This document shows, in pieces, positions 20,493 to 30,869 of a stretch of 64,000 bases of DNA. The translations under genes were made by a program, and so were the position numbers. The DNA comes from the human T2T-CHM13v2.0 reference genome, Homo sapiens: NCBI RefSeq assembly GCF_009914755.1, contig NC_060935.1, one strand, 5' to 3'. The notes beneath the pieces were generated by a model. The model worked only from the letters and a program-made list of their open reading frames with translations. It did not search any database and was not told where the DNA came from. How positions within the stretch are numbered: the first letter of the stretch is position 1; each line of letters starts with the position of its first letter.

Positions 20493-21149
20493 AAGAATAA
20501 CTGATGCTTTGAAAGAAGATTGACCGAAGGATACAGGTGTGCAAGCAGAGACATCCTTCTGTATAACTGGCAAAATTAACAAAAGTGACCGACATCTAGT
20601 TATTTCCTACTGGACATTTTGAGTTTTAAGGATAAAACTATTCTCAAAGTATCCAGGCAGATTAGCTACAAAAGGGCAAAAGCATCAGGCGTCTTTGGAT
20701 GTTTCTTCCTCGGCACCATTAGAAGTGAAGGAAGCTATCTGCAACATTTTGAGGGGAAAGTGTTACCAATAAAGGGTCTTGACTGCAAGTTGTCCAGGTT
20801 CTTGGTGTTTTGAACAAAGAATTGGACAAAACACACAGCAAAGTAAGGAAAGAATGAAGCAATGAAAGAACAAAAGCAGGAATTTATTGAAAATGAAAGT
20901 ACTCTCCACAGTGTGGGAAAGGGCCCAAGGAGCAGCTCAAGTGCCCGGGATACAGAATCTTCTTGGGTTCAAATACCCCCTAGAGGTCTCCCATTGGCCA
21001 CTTGGTGCTCACCTCATGTAAATGAAGTGGTGGCCTGGAATCAGGCTAATTGGTTGTGGAAAGCAACCAATCACACATTGAAGTAAAGTTACAAAGATCA
21101 CACTCCTATGCAAACATCTGATTGGTTGCAGAAAGCACTGCAGTATTAC

Positions 21150-24100
21150 GAATGGATATTATGAACCATATCACAGGACAGTGGACACTCCCCGTGATAT
21201 GGGGAGTAATATCAACCCCTCTCCCACCCCCGGATATCACGAACGATATCACAGGGGGGTGGACACACTGGGTATTCACGATATTTCGAGTAATATTATC
21301 TTTCCTGTTGAAAATTATGATCAATATGACAGAAGAGTGTACACCTCCTGCCATATCGGGAGTAATATCATCCTCTCCCCCACTGGATACTGGGAACAAT
21401 ATCACAGGGGCGTGTACTCTCCCTTTGATATTGGAAGAAATATCATACTCATTTCCCGGATATTAAGAACAATATCACAGGGGAGGCGTACACTTTTACG
21501 ATATTGGGAGTAATATCATTCTCTCTACCCCTGGATATTAGCAACAATATCACAGGCGGATGTACATTTCCTGCGATATTGAAGGTAGTATTATTGTCTC
21601 CCCCCCTGGATATTAGAAACAATACCACAGGGGTAATGTACACCCATTGCGATATTGGGAGTAATACCATCCTCTCCCTTCTTGGATATTAGTAACAATA
21701 TAATAGTGGGGGTGTACACCCCTCGCGATATTGAATGTAATGTCATCCTCTCCCTCCCTGAATATTACGAAAAATATCACAGGGGGTGTACAACTTCTGC
21801 GATATCGGGAGTAATATCATCCTCTCCCCCCTGGATATTAGGAACAATATCACAAGGGTGGTGTACACCCTCTGCAATTTCGGGACTAATATCATCCTCT
21901 TACCCCCAGAATATTAAAAACAATATCACAGGGGGTGGTGTACACACCCTTTGATATTGGGAGTAATATCATCCCCTCCCTCTTTGGATATTAGGTACAA
22001 TATTACAGGTTGGGTATACACCACCTGCAATATTGGAAGTAATATTATTTTCTCCCCTCCTGGATGTTAGCAACAATATCACAGGGGGTGTGTACAATCC
22101 CTGCGATATTTGAAGTAATATCATCCTCTCCCCATTTGGATATTAAGAACAATATCACGGAGGGGTGTACAACACATGCAGTATTGAAGGTCATATTATC
22201 TTCTCCAGCTTTGGATATTAGGATCAACATCACAGGTGGGGTATACACCACCAGTGATATTGGAAGTAATATTATTCTCTTTTATCCTTGATATTAGCAA
22301 ACAATAACACAGAGGGTGTGTACAACCCCTGCCATATTTGGAGTAATATCATCCCTCGCCCCATGGACATGAGAAACTATATCACAGGGGACTTGTACAT
22401 TCCATGGAATATTGGGAGTGATATCATTCTTCCCCACCCTGTATATTAGGAACAATATCACAGGGTGAATGTTCACCCCCTGTGATATTGGGAGTTATAT
22501 CATTCTCTCCCCTGCCCAGGATATTACGAACAATATCACAGGGTGGGTGTACACTTTTTGCGATATTGAGAGTAATATCATGTTCTTGTCCTCTGGATAT
22601 TAGGAACAATATCACAAAGGTGGTGTATACCCGCTGAGATATTGGGAGTAATATCATCCTACCCCTCCTTTAATATTAGGAACAAAATCACAGGGGTTTG
22701 TACACCTGCTGTGATATTGGGAGTAATATCTTCAACTCTCCCCCTGGATATTAGGAACAATATCACAGGGTAGGTGTACACTTTCTGCGACCTTGGGAGT
22801 AATATCAGCCCCTTCCCCTTTGGATATTAGAATCAATATCACAGAGGGGGTGTATCCGCCAGCGATATTGGGAGTAATATCATCCTCTCCTGCAATGGAT
22901 ATTAGAAACAATATCACAGGAAGTGTGTACACCCTCTGCCGTATTGAAAGTGATATCATTCCCTCGCACCAGCGTATTAGGAACTAAATCACAGAAAGGG
23001 CGTACACTCCCTGCGATATTGTGAGTAATATCATCTTCTTCTTCTCTGGAATTTAGGAACAAGATCACAGGGTGGGTGTACACTTGCTGTGATATAGGGA
23101 GTCATATTATCCTCTCTCCCTTTGGATATTAGGATCAATATCACAGGTGGGGTATATACCACCAGCGATATTGGAAGTAATATTATTCTCTTTTCTCCTT
23201 GATATGAGCAACAATATCACAAGGGGTGTGTACAACCCCTGCGATATTAGGAACAATATCACAGAAGGGACGTACTCTTCCTGTGATATAGGGAGTAGTA
23301 TCATCCTCTTCTTCCCTGGATAATATTAACAATATCACAGGAGGGATGCATACCTTCTGCGATATTGGGAGTAATATTATCCTCTCCCGCCCTGAATATT
23401 AGGAAAAATATCACAGGGGATATACATTTCTGTGATATTGGGAGTAATATCATCCTCTCAACCCAGGGAATTACGAACAAGATCACAGGGCTGGTGCACA
23501 CCCCTGTGATTATGGGAGCAATATCATCCTCCCCCAACCTGGATATTAGCAACAAGATCACAGAGGGGGTGTACAAACCCTGCGATATTGGAAGTAATAA
23601 GATCCTCTCTCCCCCTGGATATTAGGAAAAATATCATAGCGTGGGTGTACATTTCCTATGCTGTTGGGAGTAATATCATTCTTTTCCTCTCTGGATATTA
23701 GGAACAATATCACAGGGGTGGTTTACATTTCCTCCGATATTGGGAGTAATATCATCCTCTCCCCGTTTGGATATTAGGAACAATATCCCAGGGGGGGTGT
23801 CCACTTTCTGCGATATTGGGGGTAATATCATCCACTATTTCCCTGGATATTAGAAACAATATCACAAAAAGATGTACACCCCCCGTGATATTGGGAGTAA
23901 TATCATACTCTTCTTGCCCGGATATTAGAAACAATACCATGGGGGGGGTGAACACCCCCTGCGATACTGGGAGTAATATCATTCTCTACCCCCCAGAATA
24001 TTAGCAACAATATCACAGGAGGGGGTGTACACCCCCTGTGATATTGGGAATAATATCATTCTCTTCACCCCTGGATATTAAGAACAATATCACAGGAAGG

Positions 24101-30100: not shown

Positions 30101-30170
30101 TTACGAACCATATCACGGGGGGTTGGACACCCCCAGCGATATGGGGAGTAATATCACCCCCCTTCCCCTC
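21150..30170. repeat. SATR1/SATR2-type satellite array, ~9 kb, three monomer variants of about 63-77 bp
   Basis: Tandem monomers such as GGATATTACAAATAATATCACAGGGTGTACACCCACTGTGATATTAGGAGTAATATCTCCCTA. Confidence 0.92.
27910..28200 (+). mobile_element. AluY inserted in the satellite
   Basis: AluY diagnostics; 10-bp deletion (cacgcca^gcctggg); flanked by aataatat. Confidence 0.9.
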
Positions 30171-30869
30171 TCTGCTTTTTGCAACCAGTCAGAGGTACTT
30201 TCAATTTCCAATTTGCAGTGCAGAAAATGTGGCGGTTTGCAAAGGGAGTAGCCTCTGGTGCTTTTGTTTCTTAGGTGTGGACAGGTAGGATTTTCCTTTC
30301 AATTTAGCTCTAGGAAGTCAGCGTGAAACGGCCTTAGGTTACCTACCTCCAGACCCTATTCTCCTGCCTCAAAAGGATGCAATATAAAATATTGCTACAA
30401 GCCAAGCTGCTGTTCGTGTGTGATGTCTGCACAAAGACTTTCCTACAGGTGTATACATTCAGGAAGTGTATCACCCATGCACCCTAACTGAAAAATTGAG
30501 TAATGTTATGTTCCAGTGTAATGAGAAGTGAATCAAAATAAAGAAATCAAGAGTTGGTAAACTATTAAGGAGATAAATATTAAAACCAATAAAATAGAGA
30601 ATTAAGCTTAATTTCGTGTTTCAAATATGATAAAATAGAATGAAAGACAAAAAGTAATTATTGACAAAAGTGATACGTAAAAGTAAAATTTCAGGAATAA
30701 TCTGGGTTCAAAAATCTCATACTGCAGTTATTGGAAAAAATGATTGACATTAAATTGGTCTAAACTTTGCTGGGTTTGTTATTTTACATGTGGGAGTGTG
30801 CATAGATACTCTTATTTTCTTTTGTTAATTAGAGAAATACAGCCATAAGCATATTGCTGAAAAATTAGC

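What the first reader, a model, noticed from the sequence alone, without database searches (positions are those of the whole stretch)
20757..30375. 9-kb satellite sitting in the loop of a palindrome within one MER51A LTR
Seen: the LTR halves share one AAAG TSD, so the satellite lies inside a single LTR. The left junction ends TCTGATTGGTTGCAGAAAGCA (21117-21137). The right junction starts TGCTTTTTGCAACCAGTCAGA (30173-30193), its reverse complement at 19/21. The LTR's inverted-CCAAT palindrome therefore appears opened at its centre, with the loop present twice in inverted orientation. Inference: either a hairpin/cruciform break captured a satellite seed, or a MER51A lineage carried the seed in this slot and dispersed SATR arrays as a composite LTR-satellite element.
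Basis: partly seen in the sequence, partly recalled or inferred. Interest (0 to 1): 0.78.

Follow-up and report, generated by a model that had tools for sequence, protein, structure and literature searches.

The report
Satellite block captured in LTR palindrome
A 9-kb block of an old primate satellite sits exactly at the centre of a small hairpin-forming palindrome inside one solitary retroviral LTR, so the join can be read base by base; it is a scar of an old DNA break, not a mobile LTR-satellite element.

Summary
One solo LTR lies on the minus strand, with TG..CA ends and an AAAG target duplication. It is split at 21137/21138 and 30172/30173 by a 9,035-bp tandem array. Intact copies of the LTR carry a 13-bp-arm, 5-base-loop palindrome there. 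In the window the loop plus 3 arm bases (11 bp) lies on both sides of the array, inverted.

The carrier model fails. No other place in the genome spans either junction, 75 records of other LTR copies hold no satellite, and the other array edges examined have unrelated flanks.

The 'seed' idea also fails. The first 1.35 kb of the array is colinear, monomer by monomer, with arrays at chr11:86.80, 17.14 and 15.09 Mb. Identity there is 80-89%, against 74-78% within the array itself. The window's block is circularly permuted relative to those arrays. It therefore arrived as a ready-made block.

The palindrome is a recurrent weak point. Its loop is flipped in 20 of 77 well-kept copies, and two other copies have a doubled loop, one with a 43-bp filler.

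The LTR belongs to the MER51 family and is roughly 30-60 Myr old. I rate this a new member of known kinds of event, of moderate interest.

The parts
20757..20760 (.). Left copy of the 4-bp target-site duplication (AAAG).
   Evidence: The family makes 4-bp duplications: 11 of 23 other copies have exact ones.
20761..21137 (-). The 3' part of the solo LTR in its own (minus) orientation: the rest of U3 with the CCAAT units, then R and U5. TTTATT at 20883-20888 is AATAAA on the minus strand.
   Evidence: 39 other places match at 83-88%; it lies on the same strand as the ATM intron 28 element, which PMC5105335 describes as antisense MER51A.
21049..21071 (.). Upstream sister palindrome of the LTR, intact, with 8-bp arms ATTGGTTG/CAACCAAT.
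   Evidence: Read. The same unit recurs in other copies.
21117..21137 (.). Left junction: palindrome arm (13 bp), loop AGAAA, then the first 3 bases of the other arm.
   Evidence: The intact form is seen in L049 and others.
21138..21152 (.). 15 bp of unclear origin between the LTR and the first full monomer. It may be a degenerate piece of a monomer or filler.
   Evidence: Alignment A1: clear likeness to the paralogous arrays starts at 21153.
21138..30172 (+). The whole inserted tandem array, 9,035 bp. It carries neither a poly-A tail nor a target duplication of its own.
21153..21308 (+). One edge-type (E) monomer followed by the distinctive transition (T) monomer.
   Evidence: A1; inside the window, the best matches of this stretch lie in the right-hand E block (81-86%).
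21153..24352 (+). Block of 76-bp-period monomers.
   Evidence: Colinear in register with chr11:86.80, 17.14 and 15.09 Mb.
24386..29778 (+). Block of 63-bp-type monomers, with 75-78-bp variants.
   Evidence: The same 76-then-63 order is seen at chr3:170.98 Mb and elsewhere.
27910..28197 (+). Alu inserted into the array, with a poly-A tail. It is a later event.
   Evidence: Masked repeat at 27904-28217.
29779..30172 (+). Block of five E-type 77-bp monomers. Of the seven stretches folded, an E-type monomer gave the lowest hairpin energy.
   Evidence: period 77, 5.0 copies, 83% matches.: -16.8 and -11.5 kcal/mol.
30173..30193 (.). Right junction: TGC plus TTTTT (an inverted copy of the loop and 3 arm bases), then the second palindrome arm.
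   Evidence: The same loop-flipped form occurs without any satellite at 18 other places.
30173..30371 (-). The 5' part of the solo LTR (start of U3) in its own orientation.
   Evidence: 39 other places match at 85-89%.
30372..30375 (.). Right copy of the target-site duplication (AAAG).

Best explanation
A solo LTR of the MER51 family integrated here with a 4-bp duplication, roughly 30-60 million years ago. The last of its inverted-CCAAT palindromes has 13-bp arms and a 5-base purine loop, and as a single strand it folds into a strong hairpin. This palindrome later broke at its centre of symmetry. Both broken ends kept the loop plus 3 arm bases, in opposite orientation. That is the pattern expected in either of two cases:
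- the ends were processed as fold-backs or hairpins, or
- a template switch had first turned the palindrome into a spacer-less one with 21-bp arms, which then broke at its centre.

A ready-made block of about 9 kb was joined or copied into the gap. It came from a mixed satellite array of 76-bp and 63-bp monomers with edge-type monomers. It amounts to one unit of that array, circularly permuted relative to its relatives. The transfer was at the DNA level.

An Alu entered the array later, and the array has changed little since. The structure has no known function. It separates the first 199 bp of U3 from the CCAAT cluster.

Shown here: the anatomy, the state of intact copies, the absence of other such junctions, the block colinearity, and the recurrence of centre events in the family. 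Inferred: the kind of break, the order of steps, and whether the donor was a circle or a linear piece.
For: Anatomy and target duplication.

The intact palindrome in natural copies folds at -14.8 kcal/mol, z = -8.25, and 0 of 200 shuffles fold as well.

Centre events recur in the family:
- The loop is flipped at 20 places against 57 with the usual loop, using a 26-mer with up to 2 mismatches.
- Flipped copies do not cluster: mean identity is 0.875 flipped-flipped, 0.888 usual-usual and 0.884 mixed.
- L042 (chr6:24.54 Mb) has the same doubled inverted loop around a 43-bp filler.
- L039 (chrX:40.43 Mb) has a doubled loop with no filler.

Block, not seed:
- Array bases 1-1350 match L062 colinearly at 85.3, 84.6 and 83.3%, against second-best registers of 73.5-77.7%.
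- L083 matches at 83.9% and 89.3%, and L066 at about 80%.
- The best out-of-register match inside the window is 74.8-78.1%.
- Single alignments of up to 6.8 kb cross the 76-to-63 transition at other loci.

Permutation: at chr11:86.80 Mb (L062) the order is 63-type, then an E block, then T, then 76-type; the E-to-T-to-76 part of that order is also seen at four further places. The window has 1 E, then T, then 76-type, then 63-type, then 5 E.

There is no poly-A tail and no second target duplication at the array ends.

The satellite is unrelated to the LTR: best z = 1.67, reached by 25 of 300 shuffles.

In print, template switching inverts hairpin loops (PMC8794818, passages read). Fold-back synthesis makes 5-34-bp inverted duplications at breaks together with distant templated insertions (PMC11724301, abstract read).
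Against: - The arms are only 13 bp, which is short for cruciform extrusion in duplex DNA. A hairpin on single-stranded DNA is more plausible, but it was not observed.
- Orientation of the duplicated centre rests on 5 bases, one of which differs.
- Two copies (chr7:52.644 Mb and L054) carry a usual-loop unit and a flipped-loop unit in tandem. A variant LTR of that kind plus a small deletion could also give the window's two loops.
- No donor array was identified. The best paralogues are only 80-89% identical.
- At the right end the colinearity is weak: 70.5-71.5% and 75.5% against 73.1%, with no distinct register in L062. Only L064 stands out, at 79.9% against 73.2%.
- Negative genome searches scored only 40 of 913 and 40 of 1,172 first-look candidates, closed regions are not shown, and 128 matches were not listed.
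- In one search five satellite matches run 7-23 bases past the junction (to query 157-173). I read these as alignment run-on.
- No other species could be examined.
Confidence: 0.55

Rival explanations
1. Seed capture with growth in place. The break took up one to three monomers, which then expanded into 9 kb by unequal exchange at this locus.
For: Both ends of the array carry the same edge-type monomer. One search shows the left-end monomers match the right-end block at 81-86%. This is the classic picture of old monomers at array edges.
Against: Growth in place cannot give monomer-by-monomer colinearity with arrays elsewhere at higher identity (80-89%) than between the array's own monomers (74-78%). 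It also cannot explain why the same E-to-T-to-76 order is seen at five other places, and the 63-to-E order at chr11:86.80 Mb, or single alignments of up to 6.8 kb across the type transition.
Confidence: 0.1
2. Carrier model. A lineage of this LTR carried satellite monomers in the palindrome and spread arrays as a composite LTR-satellite element.
For: A composite of these satellites with another ERV is in print: SATR-HERVE-SATR, at the flanks of the Xiao/DA duplicons (PMC2700803, abstract and passages; PMC5088589, passages). L042 shares the doubled loop with an insert.
Against: - No other place spans either junction.
- There were 0 satellite matches in 75 records of other LTR copies, about 65 distinct places.
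- There were 0 LTR matches in 10 records of other arrays.
- The L042 filler is unique and no more like the satellite than shuffled sequence, 99 of 200.
- L042 is no closer to the window's LTR than ordinary copies are.
Confidence: 0.03
3. Purely replicative event. A fork stalled at the hairpin and the nascent strand switched to a satellite array elsewhere on chr11. It copied about 9 kb and switched back onto the opposite arm, with no free double-strand ends or circle involved.
For: All three closest paralogues are on chr11. Loop flips in 20 of 77 copies show that template switching acts at this palindrome. The return onto the opposite arm would produce exactly the 11-bp inverted copy.
Against: It does not by itself explain why start and end fall in the same E block, so that the insert equals about one unit. 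No clear microhomology was seen at the left junction, where 15 bp are of unclear origin.
Confidence: 0.2
4. This locus is the birthplace of the satellite, and the other arrays descend from it.
For: Both the satellite monomers and the LTR palindrome are hairpin formers. By eye there is a faint likeness between the monomer start and the palindrome arm.
Against: - The satellite is not significantly similar to either LTR half (at best, 25 of 300 shuffles reach the observed score).
- The paralogues carry no LTR remnants.
- The paralogues continue as satellite beyond the point that matches the window's left edge.
- The macaque has megabases of these families (10.1101/2025.08.04.668424, passages).
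Confidence: 0.03
5. Artefact or two elements. Either this is an assembly error, or two different LTR fragments happen to flank an older array.
For: None found.
Against: The two parts meet exactly at one palindrome. They add up to 576 bp, against 537-720 bp in 23 whole copies. They share one 4-bp duplication. The monomers are 66-88% alike, so the array is not hard to assemble.
Confidence: 0.02

Closest known systems
Template-switch mutations at hairpins, including loop inversion (PMC8794818, passages read; PMC5453318, search listing and start of abstract only)
   Same: A perfect short inverted repeat whose loop is found in both orientations among related copies. Stems become extended into the loop. 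Several bases change in a single event.
   Different: Those reports concern changes of a few bases. Here one copy also holds a 9-kb foreign insert and another a 43-bp filler at the centre.
Fold-back templated inverted insertions at double-strand breaks in yeast (PMC11724301, abstract read)
   Same: Inverted duplications of 5-34 bp next to a break, found together with insertions copied from distant fragile regions. The 11-bp inverted copy falls within that size range.
   Different: That is an experimental system in yeast. Here there is one old germ-line event in a primate, and no enzymes can be inferred.
Palindrome-mediated breakage as proposed for AT-rich palindromes in recurrent human translocations: cruciform cut, then hairpin ends opened (recalled, no paper read)
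   Same: The break is at the centre of symmetry of a palindrome. Hairpin-ended intermediates would leave the centre on both sides.
   Different: Those palindromes are hundreds of bp long and AT-rich, and they usually lose bases at the centre. This one is 31 bp and gained 11.
Xiao/DA core duplicons with SATR-HERVE-SATR flanks (PMC2700803, abstract and passages; PMC5088589, passages)
   Same: The same satellite families are tied to an ERV1-class element. They spread as multi-kb blocks in catarrhines about 25-7 Myr ago. Some hits lie in 8p23.1 and 16p13, where print places them.
   Different: The ERV there is HERV-E and the satellites flank it. Here the satellite lies inside a solo MER51-family LTR, and the junctions are single-copy.
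Interstitial SATR1-SATR2 mixed, multi-core arrays of the macaque (10.1101/2025.08.04.668424, passages read)
   Same: Mixed arrays of two monomer families arranged in repeated cores. The window's array looks like one such core.
   Different: The macaque arrays are flanked by inverted segmental-duplication spacers. None is seen here.
Proposed spread of satellites through extrachromosomal circles (titles and abstract starts from the listing only)
   Same: A unit-length, circularly permuted insert is what an opened circle would give.
   Different: No circle was observed. A unit-length linear piece of a multi-core array fits equally well.

Membership tests
   Searches show TG at 20761, CA at 30370-30371 and AAAG on both sides. 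Exact 4-bp flank repeats occur in 11 of 23 other copies. That ERV1 elements make 4-bp duplications is recalled.
   The ATM intron 28 element (PMC5105335: 'highest similarity to MER51A', with inverted repeats and purine-rich loops) was fetched as L093. It matches the left part at bases 53-313 (76.7%) and the right part at bases 12-121 (77.5%), colinear and on the same strand. My fetch cut this element at its far end. The match is weaker than the 83-89% to other copies, so the family is supported but the subfamily letter is not.
   No Dfam or Repbase library was on hand. PMC5753468 (one passage) lists MER51A-E with the HERV4_I / MER51I internal parts.
   By eye there are at least five CCAAT/ATTGG motifs in 576 bp. 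PMC12065363 (passages) reports MER51A/E bound by NF-Y, with more than one CCAAT per 100 bp.
   No repeat library was available. Indirect support: and one search hits lie at chr8:6.83 and 12.98 Mb, chr16:14.8-18.5 Mb and chr21:30.98 Mb. Print places SATR1/SATR2 of the Xiao/DA duplicons in such regions (PMC5088589, PMC2700803). The agreement is coarse only.
Composite LTR-satellite mobile element (carrier model) | The same LTR-satellite junctions at several loci with different target duplications. | tested here: not met
   apart from the window itself, no match spans either junction; 0 satellite matches in 75 LTR records; 0 LTR matches in 10 satellite records.
Retrotransposed insert (L1-mediated) | A poly-A tail and a 7-20-bp target duplication at the insert ends. 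| tested here: not met
   neither array end has a poly-A run or direct flank repeats. The feature list is recalled.
Palindrome-centre break with hairpin or fold-back processing | The break is at the centre of symmetry, and the centre is duplicated in inverted orientation. | tested here: met
   There are 21 bases on each side, complementary at 19 of 21. Intact copies have 13 + 5 + 13.
Palindrome-centre break with hairpin or fold-back processing | Recurrence at the same structure in independent copies. | tested here: met
   L042 has a doubled loop plus a 43-bp filler. L039 has a doubled loop with no filler. Flipped loops occur at 20 of 77 places.
Palindrome-centre break with hairpin or fold-back processing | A long (over 100 bp) AT-rich palindrome, as at the translocation hot spots. 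| tested here: not met
   The palindrome is 31 bp and not AT-rich. It works like those hot spots at most; it is not a member of that class.
Re-inserted extrachromosomal circle | The insert is circularly permuted relative to its relatives and one unit long. | tested here: inconclusive
   The order of monomer types is permuted, and the E monomers add up to 1 + 5 against about 5 in L062. In-register support at the right end is weak, and the unit length of the donor is unknown.
Re-inserted extrachromosomal circle | Direct evidence of circles of this satellite. | not testable with these tools

The most novel reading that the evidence does not exclude
Mixed SATR arrays spread through primate euchromatin as whole cores of about 9 kb, without any transposase. 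Circles or unit-length pieces open at their hairpin-prone edge-type monomers and are captured at hairpin-type breaks such as this LTR palindrome. On this reading, DNA structure at both partners directs where a satellite lands. The MER51-family palindromes would then be a family-wide set of weak points.
Probability: 0.15. Interest if true: 0.75.

Novelty: new member of a known kind. Interest (0 to 1): 0.42.

Why it matters
How a satellite reaches a new euchromatic site is rarely visible at base resolution, because the unoccupied target is usually unknown. Here the target is a member of a large LTR family, so dozens of intact copies serve as unoccupied-site controls. Both joins can therefore be read.

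The result is a DNA-level capture of a ready-made block at the centre of a small palindrome, with an 11-bp inverted copy.

The work also shows that one short palindrome, sitting in an NF-Y-bound LTR family, has been altered again and again: flipped loops, doubled loops and centre fillers. That makes it a natural series for studying template switching in the human germ line.

It corrects two attractive ideas. This satellite was neither seeded here nor spread by this LTR.

Tried and rejected
1. Satellite derived from the LTR palindrome. By eye the monomer start resembles the palindrome arm. Local alignment against dinucleotide shuffles gave nothing: the best z was 1.67, and 25 of 300 shuffles reached the observed score. 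Rejected.

2. The 43-bp filler of L042 as a proto-monomer. Rejected, because 99 of 200 shuffles score as well. The filler is also not shared by other copies: only the query itself and one 76% match, a tandem-unit copy on chrX, span it.

3. A non-satellite segment of the array that recurs next to arrays at many loci looked like terminal inverted repeats of a mobile unit. Reading it showed an ordinary Alu. Rejected.

4. Defined termini of a transposon. The array edges at L078, L064/L092 and L083 are in different monomer phases and show no shared end sequence. Rejected. Even so, four of the seven edges seen lie in or at an E block, which I cannot explain with certainty.

5. Flipped loop as a subfamily marker. 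Flipped copies do not cluster (6 flipped including the window, 23 usual, 180 bp only). Judged unlikely, on thin data.

6. Monomer typing by short fuzzy motifs. Too noisy, so I did not use it.

7. Right edge of the chr2:180.50 Mb array (L092). I fetched it to see whether the truncated Alu at the left edge continues there. It does not, so this gave no second readable target.

8. L091 (chr8:29.58 Mb). It turned out to be array interior with an inversion point and showed no edge.

9. PMC11772670. The 'find' for my terms returned nothing, and I took nothing from it.

10. Not tried: other primates (no such collection here), Dfam or Repbase naming, read data, and a provirus of this family for a core-gene name.

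
Full report
**What is there**

The window holds AAAG at 20757-20760. An LTR follows, starting with TG at 20761, and it runs unbroken to 21137. A tandem array occupies 21138-30172. The rest of the LTR runs from 30173 to CA at 30371, followed by AAAG again at 30372-30375.

Tandem Repeats Finder gives these blocks:
- Period 76 from 21153 to 24352.
- Period 63, with 75-78-bp variants, from about 24386 to 29808.
- Period 77 from 29779 to 30168, with 5.0 copies at 83% matches.

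A 288-bp stretch at 27910-28197 is an Alu with a poly-A tail, inserted into the array. No other satellite lies in the window.

**One LTR, and of what family**

The left part (377 bp) has 39 other matches in the genome at 83-88%. The right part (199 bp) has 39 at 85-89%. In each search 40 candidates were scored, of 1,437 and 903 found in the first look. Many alignments start at base 1 and end at base 199.

I found 23 distinct copies in which both ends align. They are 537-720 bp long, all start with TGT and all end with CTCA. Eleven have an exact 4-bp flank repeat, each different from the others. The window's two parts add up to 576 bp. So this is one solo LTR with its own target duplication.

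PMC5105335 (passages and the legend of its figure 4) describes an element in ATM intron 28 as most similar to MER51A. It lies antisense to the gene and has inverted repeats and purine-rich loops. I found the 3.1-kb intron in the annotation and fetched 721 bp of it. The window's left part matches it at 76.7% (bases 53-313) and the right part at 77.5% (bases 12-121). The matches are colinear and on the same strand.

This supports the MER51 family and a minus-strand orientation, which also fits AATAAA on the minus strand at 20883-20888. It does not settle the subfamily letter. PMC5753468 (one passage) places MER51A-E with the HERV4_I / MER51I internal parts. PMC12065363 (passages) reports NF-Y binding and dense CCAAT boxes in MER51A/E, and these are visible here.

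**Age**

I took the first 250 bp of the LTR in 38 sequences, the window among them. These are drawn from the copies the search ranked as most similar, so they are a biased sample. The mean Kimura distance is 0.160 among the others (666 pairs) and 0.152 from the window to the others. Without CpG sites the values are 0.139 and 0.137.

Half of the pairwise distance gives a branch of 0.07-0.08. That corresponds to about 31-36 Myr at a rate of 2.2e-9 per site per year, and up to about 60 Myr at 1.2e-9. Both rates are recalled. No outgroup was available.

**The palindrome**

In natural intact copies the split site reads as a 13-bp arm, a 5-base loop and a 13-bp arm. L049 is an example. As single-stranded DNA it folds at -14.8 kcal/mol, z = -8.25, and 0 of 200 shuffles fold as well.

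The window's left junction holds the arm, the loop AGAAA and the first three bases of the second arm. The right junction holds TGC, TTTTT and the second arm. The central 11 bases are therefore present on both sides of the array in inverted orientation, matching at 10 of 11.

Because the three arm bases are self-complementary, orientation rests on the five loop bases alone.

**Is this LTR a carrier of the satellite?**

No, on every test I could make.
- A 250-bp query across the left junction gave 110 matches. Apart from the window itself, every match covers only the LTR side (up to query base 100) or only the satellite side (from base 116) (40 of 913 candidates scored).
- The query across the right junction gave 278 matches, of which 150 were listed. 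Apart from the window itself, none joins the two sides. Five satellite matches run 7-23 bases past the junction (to query 157-173), which I read as alignment run-on (40 of 1,172 scored).
- I held 75 records carrying other copies of the LTR, about 65 distinct places. None has any satellite match.
- Ten records of other arrays have no LTR match.
- Their visible edges abut unique DNA (L078, both sides), a truncated Alu and unique DNA (L064 and L092), and what I take by eye for L1 sequence (L083).
- No paper in the library holds both MER51 and SATR (0 papers).

**Did it grow from a seed?**

No. I cut the array into 450-bp pieces and compared them with the seven satellite loci I held and with the array itself, counting only alignments of 350 bp or more.
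- Pieces starting at array bases 1, 451 and 901 match L062 (chr11:86.80 Mb) colinearly at 85.3, 84.6 and 83.3%. The second-best, out-of-register matches there are 73.5-77.7%.
- L083 (chr11:17.14 Mb) gives 83.9% for the first piece and 89.3% for the piece at 1351.
- L066 (chr11:15.09 Mb) gives about 80%, also colinear.
- The best out-of-register match inside the window's own array is 74.8-78.1%.
- L078, L090 and L091 show no preferred register and so serve as controls.

Monomers that are more alike between loci than within the array must have diverged before the loci separated.

With the whole array as query (27 of 7,837 candidates scored), single alignments of up to 6.8 kb cross the transition from 76-bp to 63-bp monomers at other loci. 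One example is chr3:170.98 Mb, covering query 91-6744 at 70%. So at least the left part, and probably the whole array, arrived as a ready-made block.

In-register identity of 83-89% suggests the paralogues separated tens of millions of years ago, about as long ago as the LTR integrated. This dates the relatives and not necessarily the capture.

**Circular permutation**

The edge (E) block is followed by a distinctive transition monomer (T) and then by 76-type monomers at five other places: chr11:86.80, 17.14 and 15.09 Mb, chr8:29.58 Mb and chr2:180.50 Mb. At chr11:86.80 Mb the chunk mapping also shows 63-type monomers running into that E block.

The window has 15 bp of unclear origin, then one E monomer, T and the 76-type block on the left. 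On the right it has the 63-type block and five E monomers. Its two ends therefore fall in what is a single E block elsewhere: 1 + 5 monomers here against about 5 in L062.

An opened circle, or a unit-length piece of a multi-core array, would give this pattern. Mixed multi-core SATR1-SATR2 arrays are described in the macaque (10.1101/2025.08.04.668424, passages).

At the right end the in-register signal is weak. L062 gives 70.5-71.5%, and 75.5% against 73.1%. Only L064 stands out, at 79.9% against 73.2%. The permutation is therefore shown at the level of monomer types and not base by base.

Of the monomer types folded, E monomers form the strongest hairpins: -16.8 and -11.5 kcal/mol, against -8.9 for a 76-type and -5.2 for a 63-type. 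Four of the seven array edges I saw lie in or at an E block.

**A recurrent weak point**

I searched for a 26-base stretch that includes the asymmetric flank, allowing up to 2 mismatches. The usual loop orientation occurs at 57 places. The flipped one occurs at 20, which include the window and L042. The backward controls gave 0.

Flipped copies are not each other's nearest relatives. Mean identity is 0.875 flipped-flipped, 0.888 usual-usual and 0.884 mixed (small sample). Repeated independent flips are therefore more likely than a subfamily marker.

Other centre events in the family:
- L042 (chr6:24.54 Mb) has the same doubled, inverted loop as the window, around a 43-bp filler that is unique and unrelated to the satellite.
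- L039 (chrX:40.43 Mb) has a doubled loop with no filler in another unit of the LTR, making a near-perfect 38-bp palindrome.
- L048 has what I read as a direct duplication of the centre (by eye).
- At chr16:8.141 Mb the arms extend into the flank.
- chr7:52.644 Mb and L054 have a usual unit and a flipped unit in tandem.

Loop inversion and stem extension are the published footprints of template switching (PMC8794818, passages). Short inverted duplications at breaks, together with distant templated insertions, are reported from yeast (PMC11724301, abstract).

**Mechanism, and what is inferred**

The symmetric position of the insert and the inverted 11-bp copy fit two routes. In the first, the ends were processed as fold-backs or hairpins in a single event. 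In the second, a template switch first made a spacer-less palindrome with 21-bp arms, as in L039, and that palindrome then broke at its centre. I cannot tell the two apart.

The arms are short for cruciform extrusion in duplex DNA, so a hairpin on single-stranded DNA during replication or resection is the more likely structure. That step is inference.

A purely replicative copy from another chr11 array is a live rival. So is a variant LTR with tandem units plus a small deletion.

No poly-A tail and no second target duplication mark the array ends, so an RNA route is unlikely. The satellite is not derived from the LTR.

**Standing**

The structure is real and old, and it has no evident function. 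In print these satellites are tied to a different ERV, as SATR-HERVE-SATR flanks of the Xiao/DA duplicons that spread 25-7 Myr ago (PMC2700803, abstract and passages; PMC5088589, passages). Some hits probably belong to those duplicons, and I did not follow that up.

The window's junctions are single-copy and are not described in the library searched.

Limits:
- Negative searches score few candidates and omit closed regions.
- No other species, no reads and no supplementary files could be consulted.

Noticed in passing
window 27910-28197: An Alu with a poly-A tail is inserted in the 63-bp part of the array. It explains the many matches to query 6773-7060, which at first looked like a shared flanking element.
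   Followed up: yes
L048 about 1690-2263 (chr3:87.22 Mb): Another copy of the LTR has about 570 bp between its two parts. This looks like a minisatellite of roughly 20-bp units made from the LTR's own sequence just downstream of the palindrome.
   Followed up: no
L091 about 330 (chr8:29.578 Mb): Inside a satellite array the monomers change orientation at one point, so the array holds an inversion junction. The array at chr2:180.50 Mb also ends in an inverted stretch.
   Followed up: no
G000 chr16:8141244-8141284: A usual-loop and a flipped-loop 26-mer overlap on opposite strands. The palindrome arms have therefore been extended to take in the flank on both sides.
   Followed up: no
G000 chr7:52644014-52644069; L054 (chrX:118.26 Mb): Two LTR copies carry a usual-loop unit and a flipped-loop unit in tandem. 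At chr7 the two 26-mers start 30 bp apart; in L054 the units are tens of bases apart.
   Followed up: partly
L002, L033, L037, L056: Several LTR copies lack the first arm of the palindrome. The missing stretch lies between two short direct repeats, as if it was lost by slippage.
   Followed up: no
G000 chr2:71.04 and 71.06, chr2:159.33, chr3:8.68, chr9:102.39, chr10:15.02, chr11:71.54, chr14:45.96 Mb: Eight places match the same 3.4-kb stretch of the array (query about 1130-4780) at 70-74%. At six of them an inverted Alu lies at the same relative position. They are probably copies of one duplicon, perhaps the Xiao/DA elements described in print.
   Followed up: no
L062, L083, L066: All three arrays that are colinear in register with the window's array lie on chromosome 11, at 86.80, 17.14 and 15.09 Mb, as does the window at 58.6 Mb.
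   Followed up: partly
23 whole copies of the LTR: Whole copies range from 537 to 720 bp. The main cause is that the 60-75-bp unit carrying the CCAAT palindrome is present in different numbers.
   Followed up: partly
window 36196-36425, 37112-37264, 3910-3959: Two long (ATCT)n microsatellites lie 700 bp apart, and there is a perfect (TA)25.
   Followed up: no
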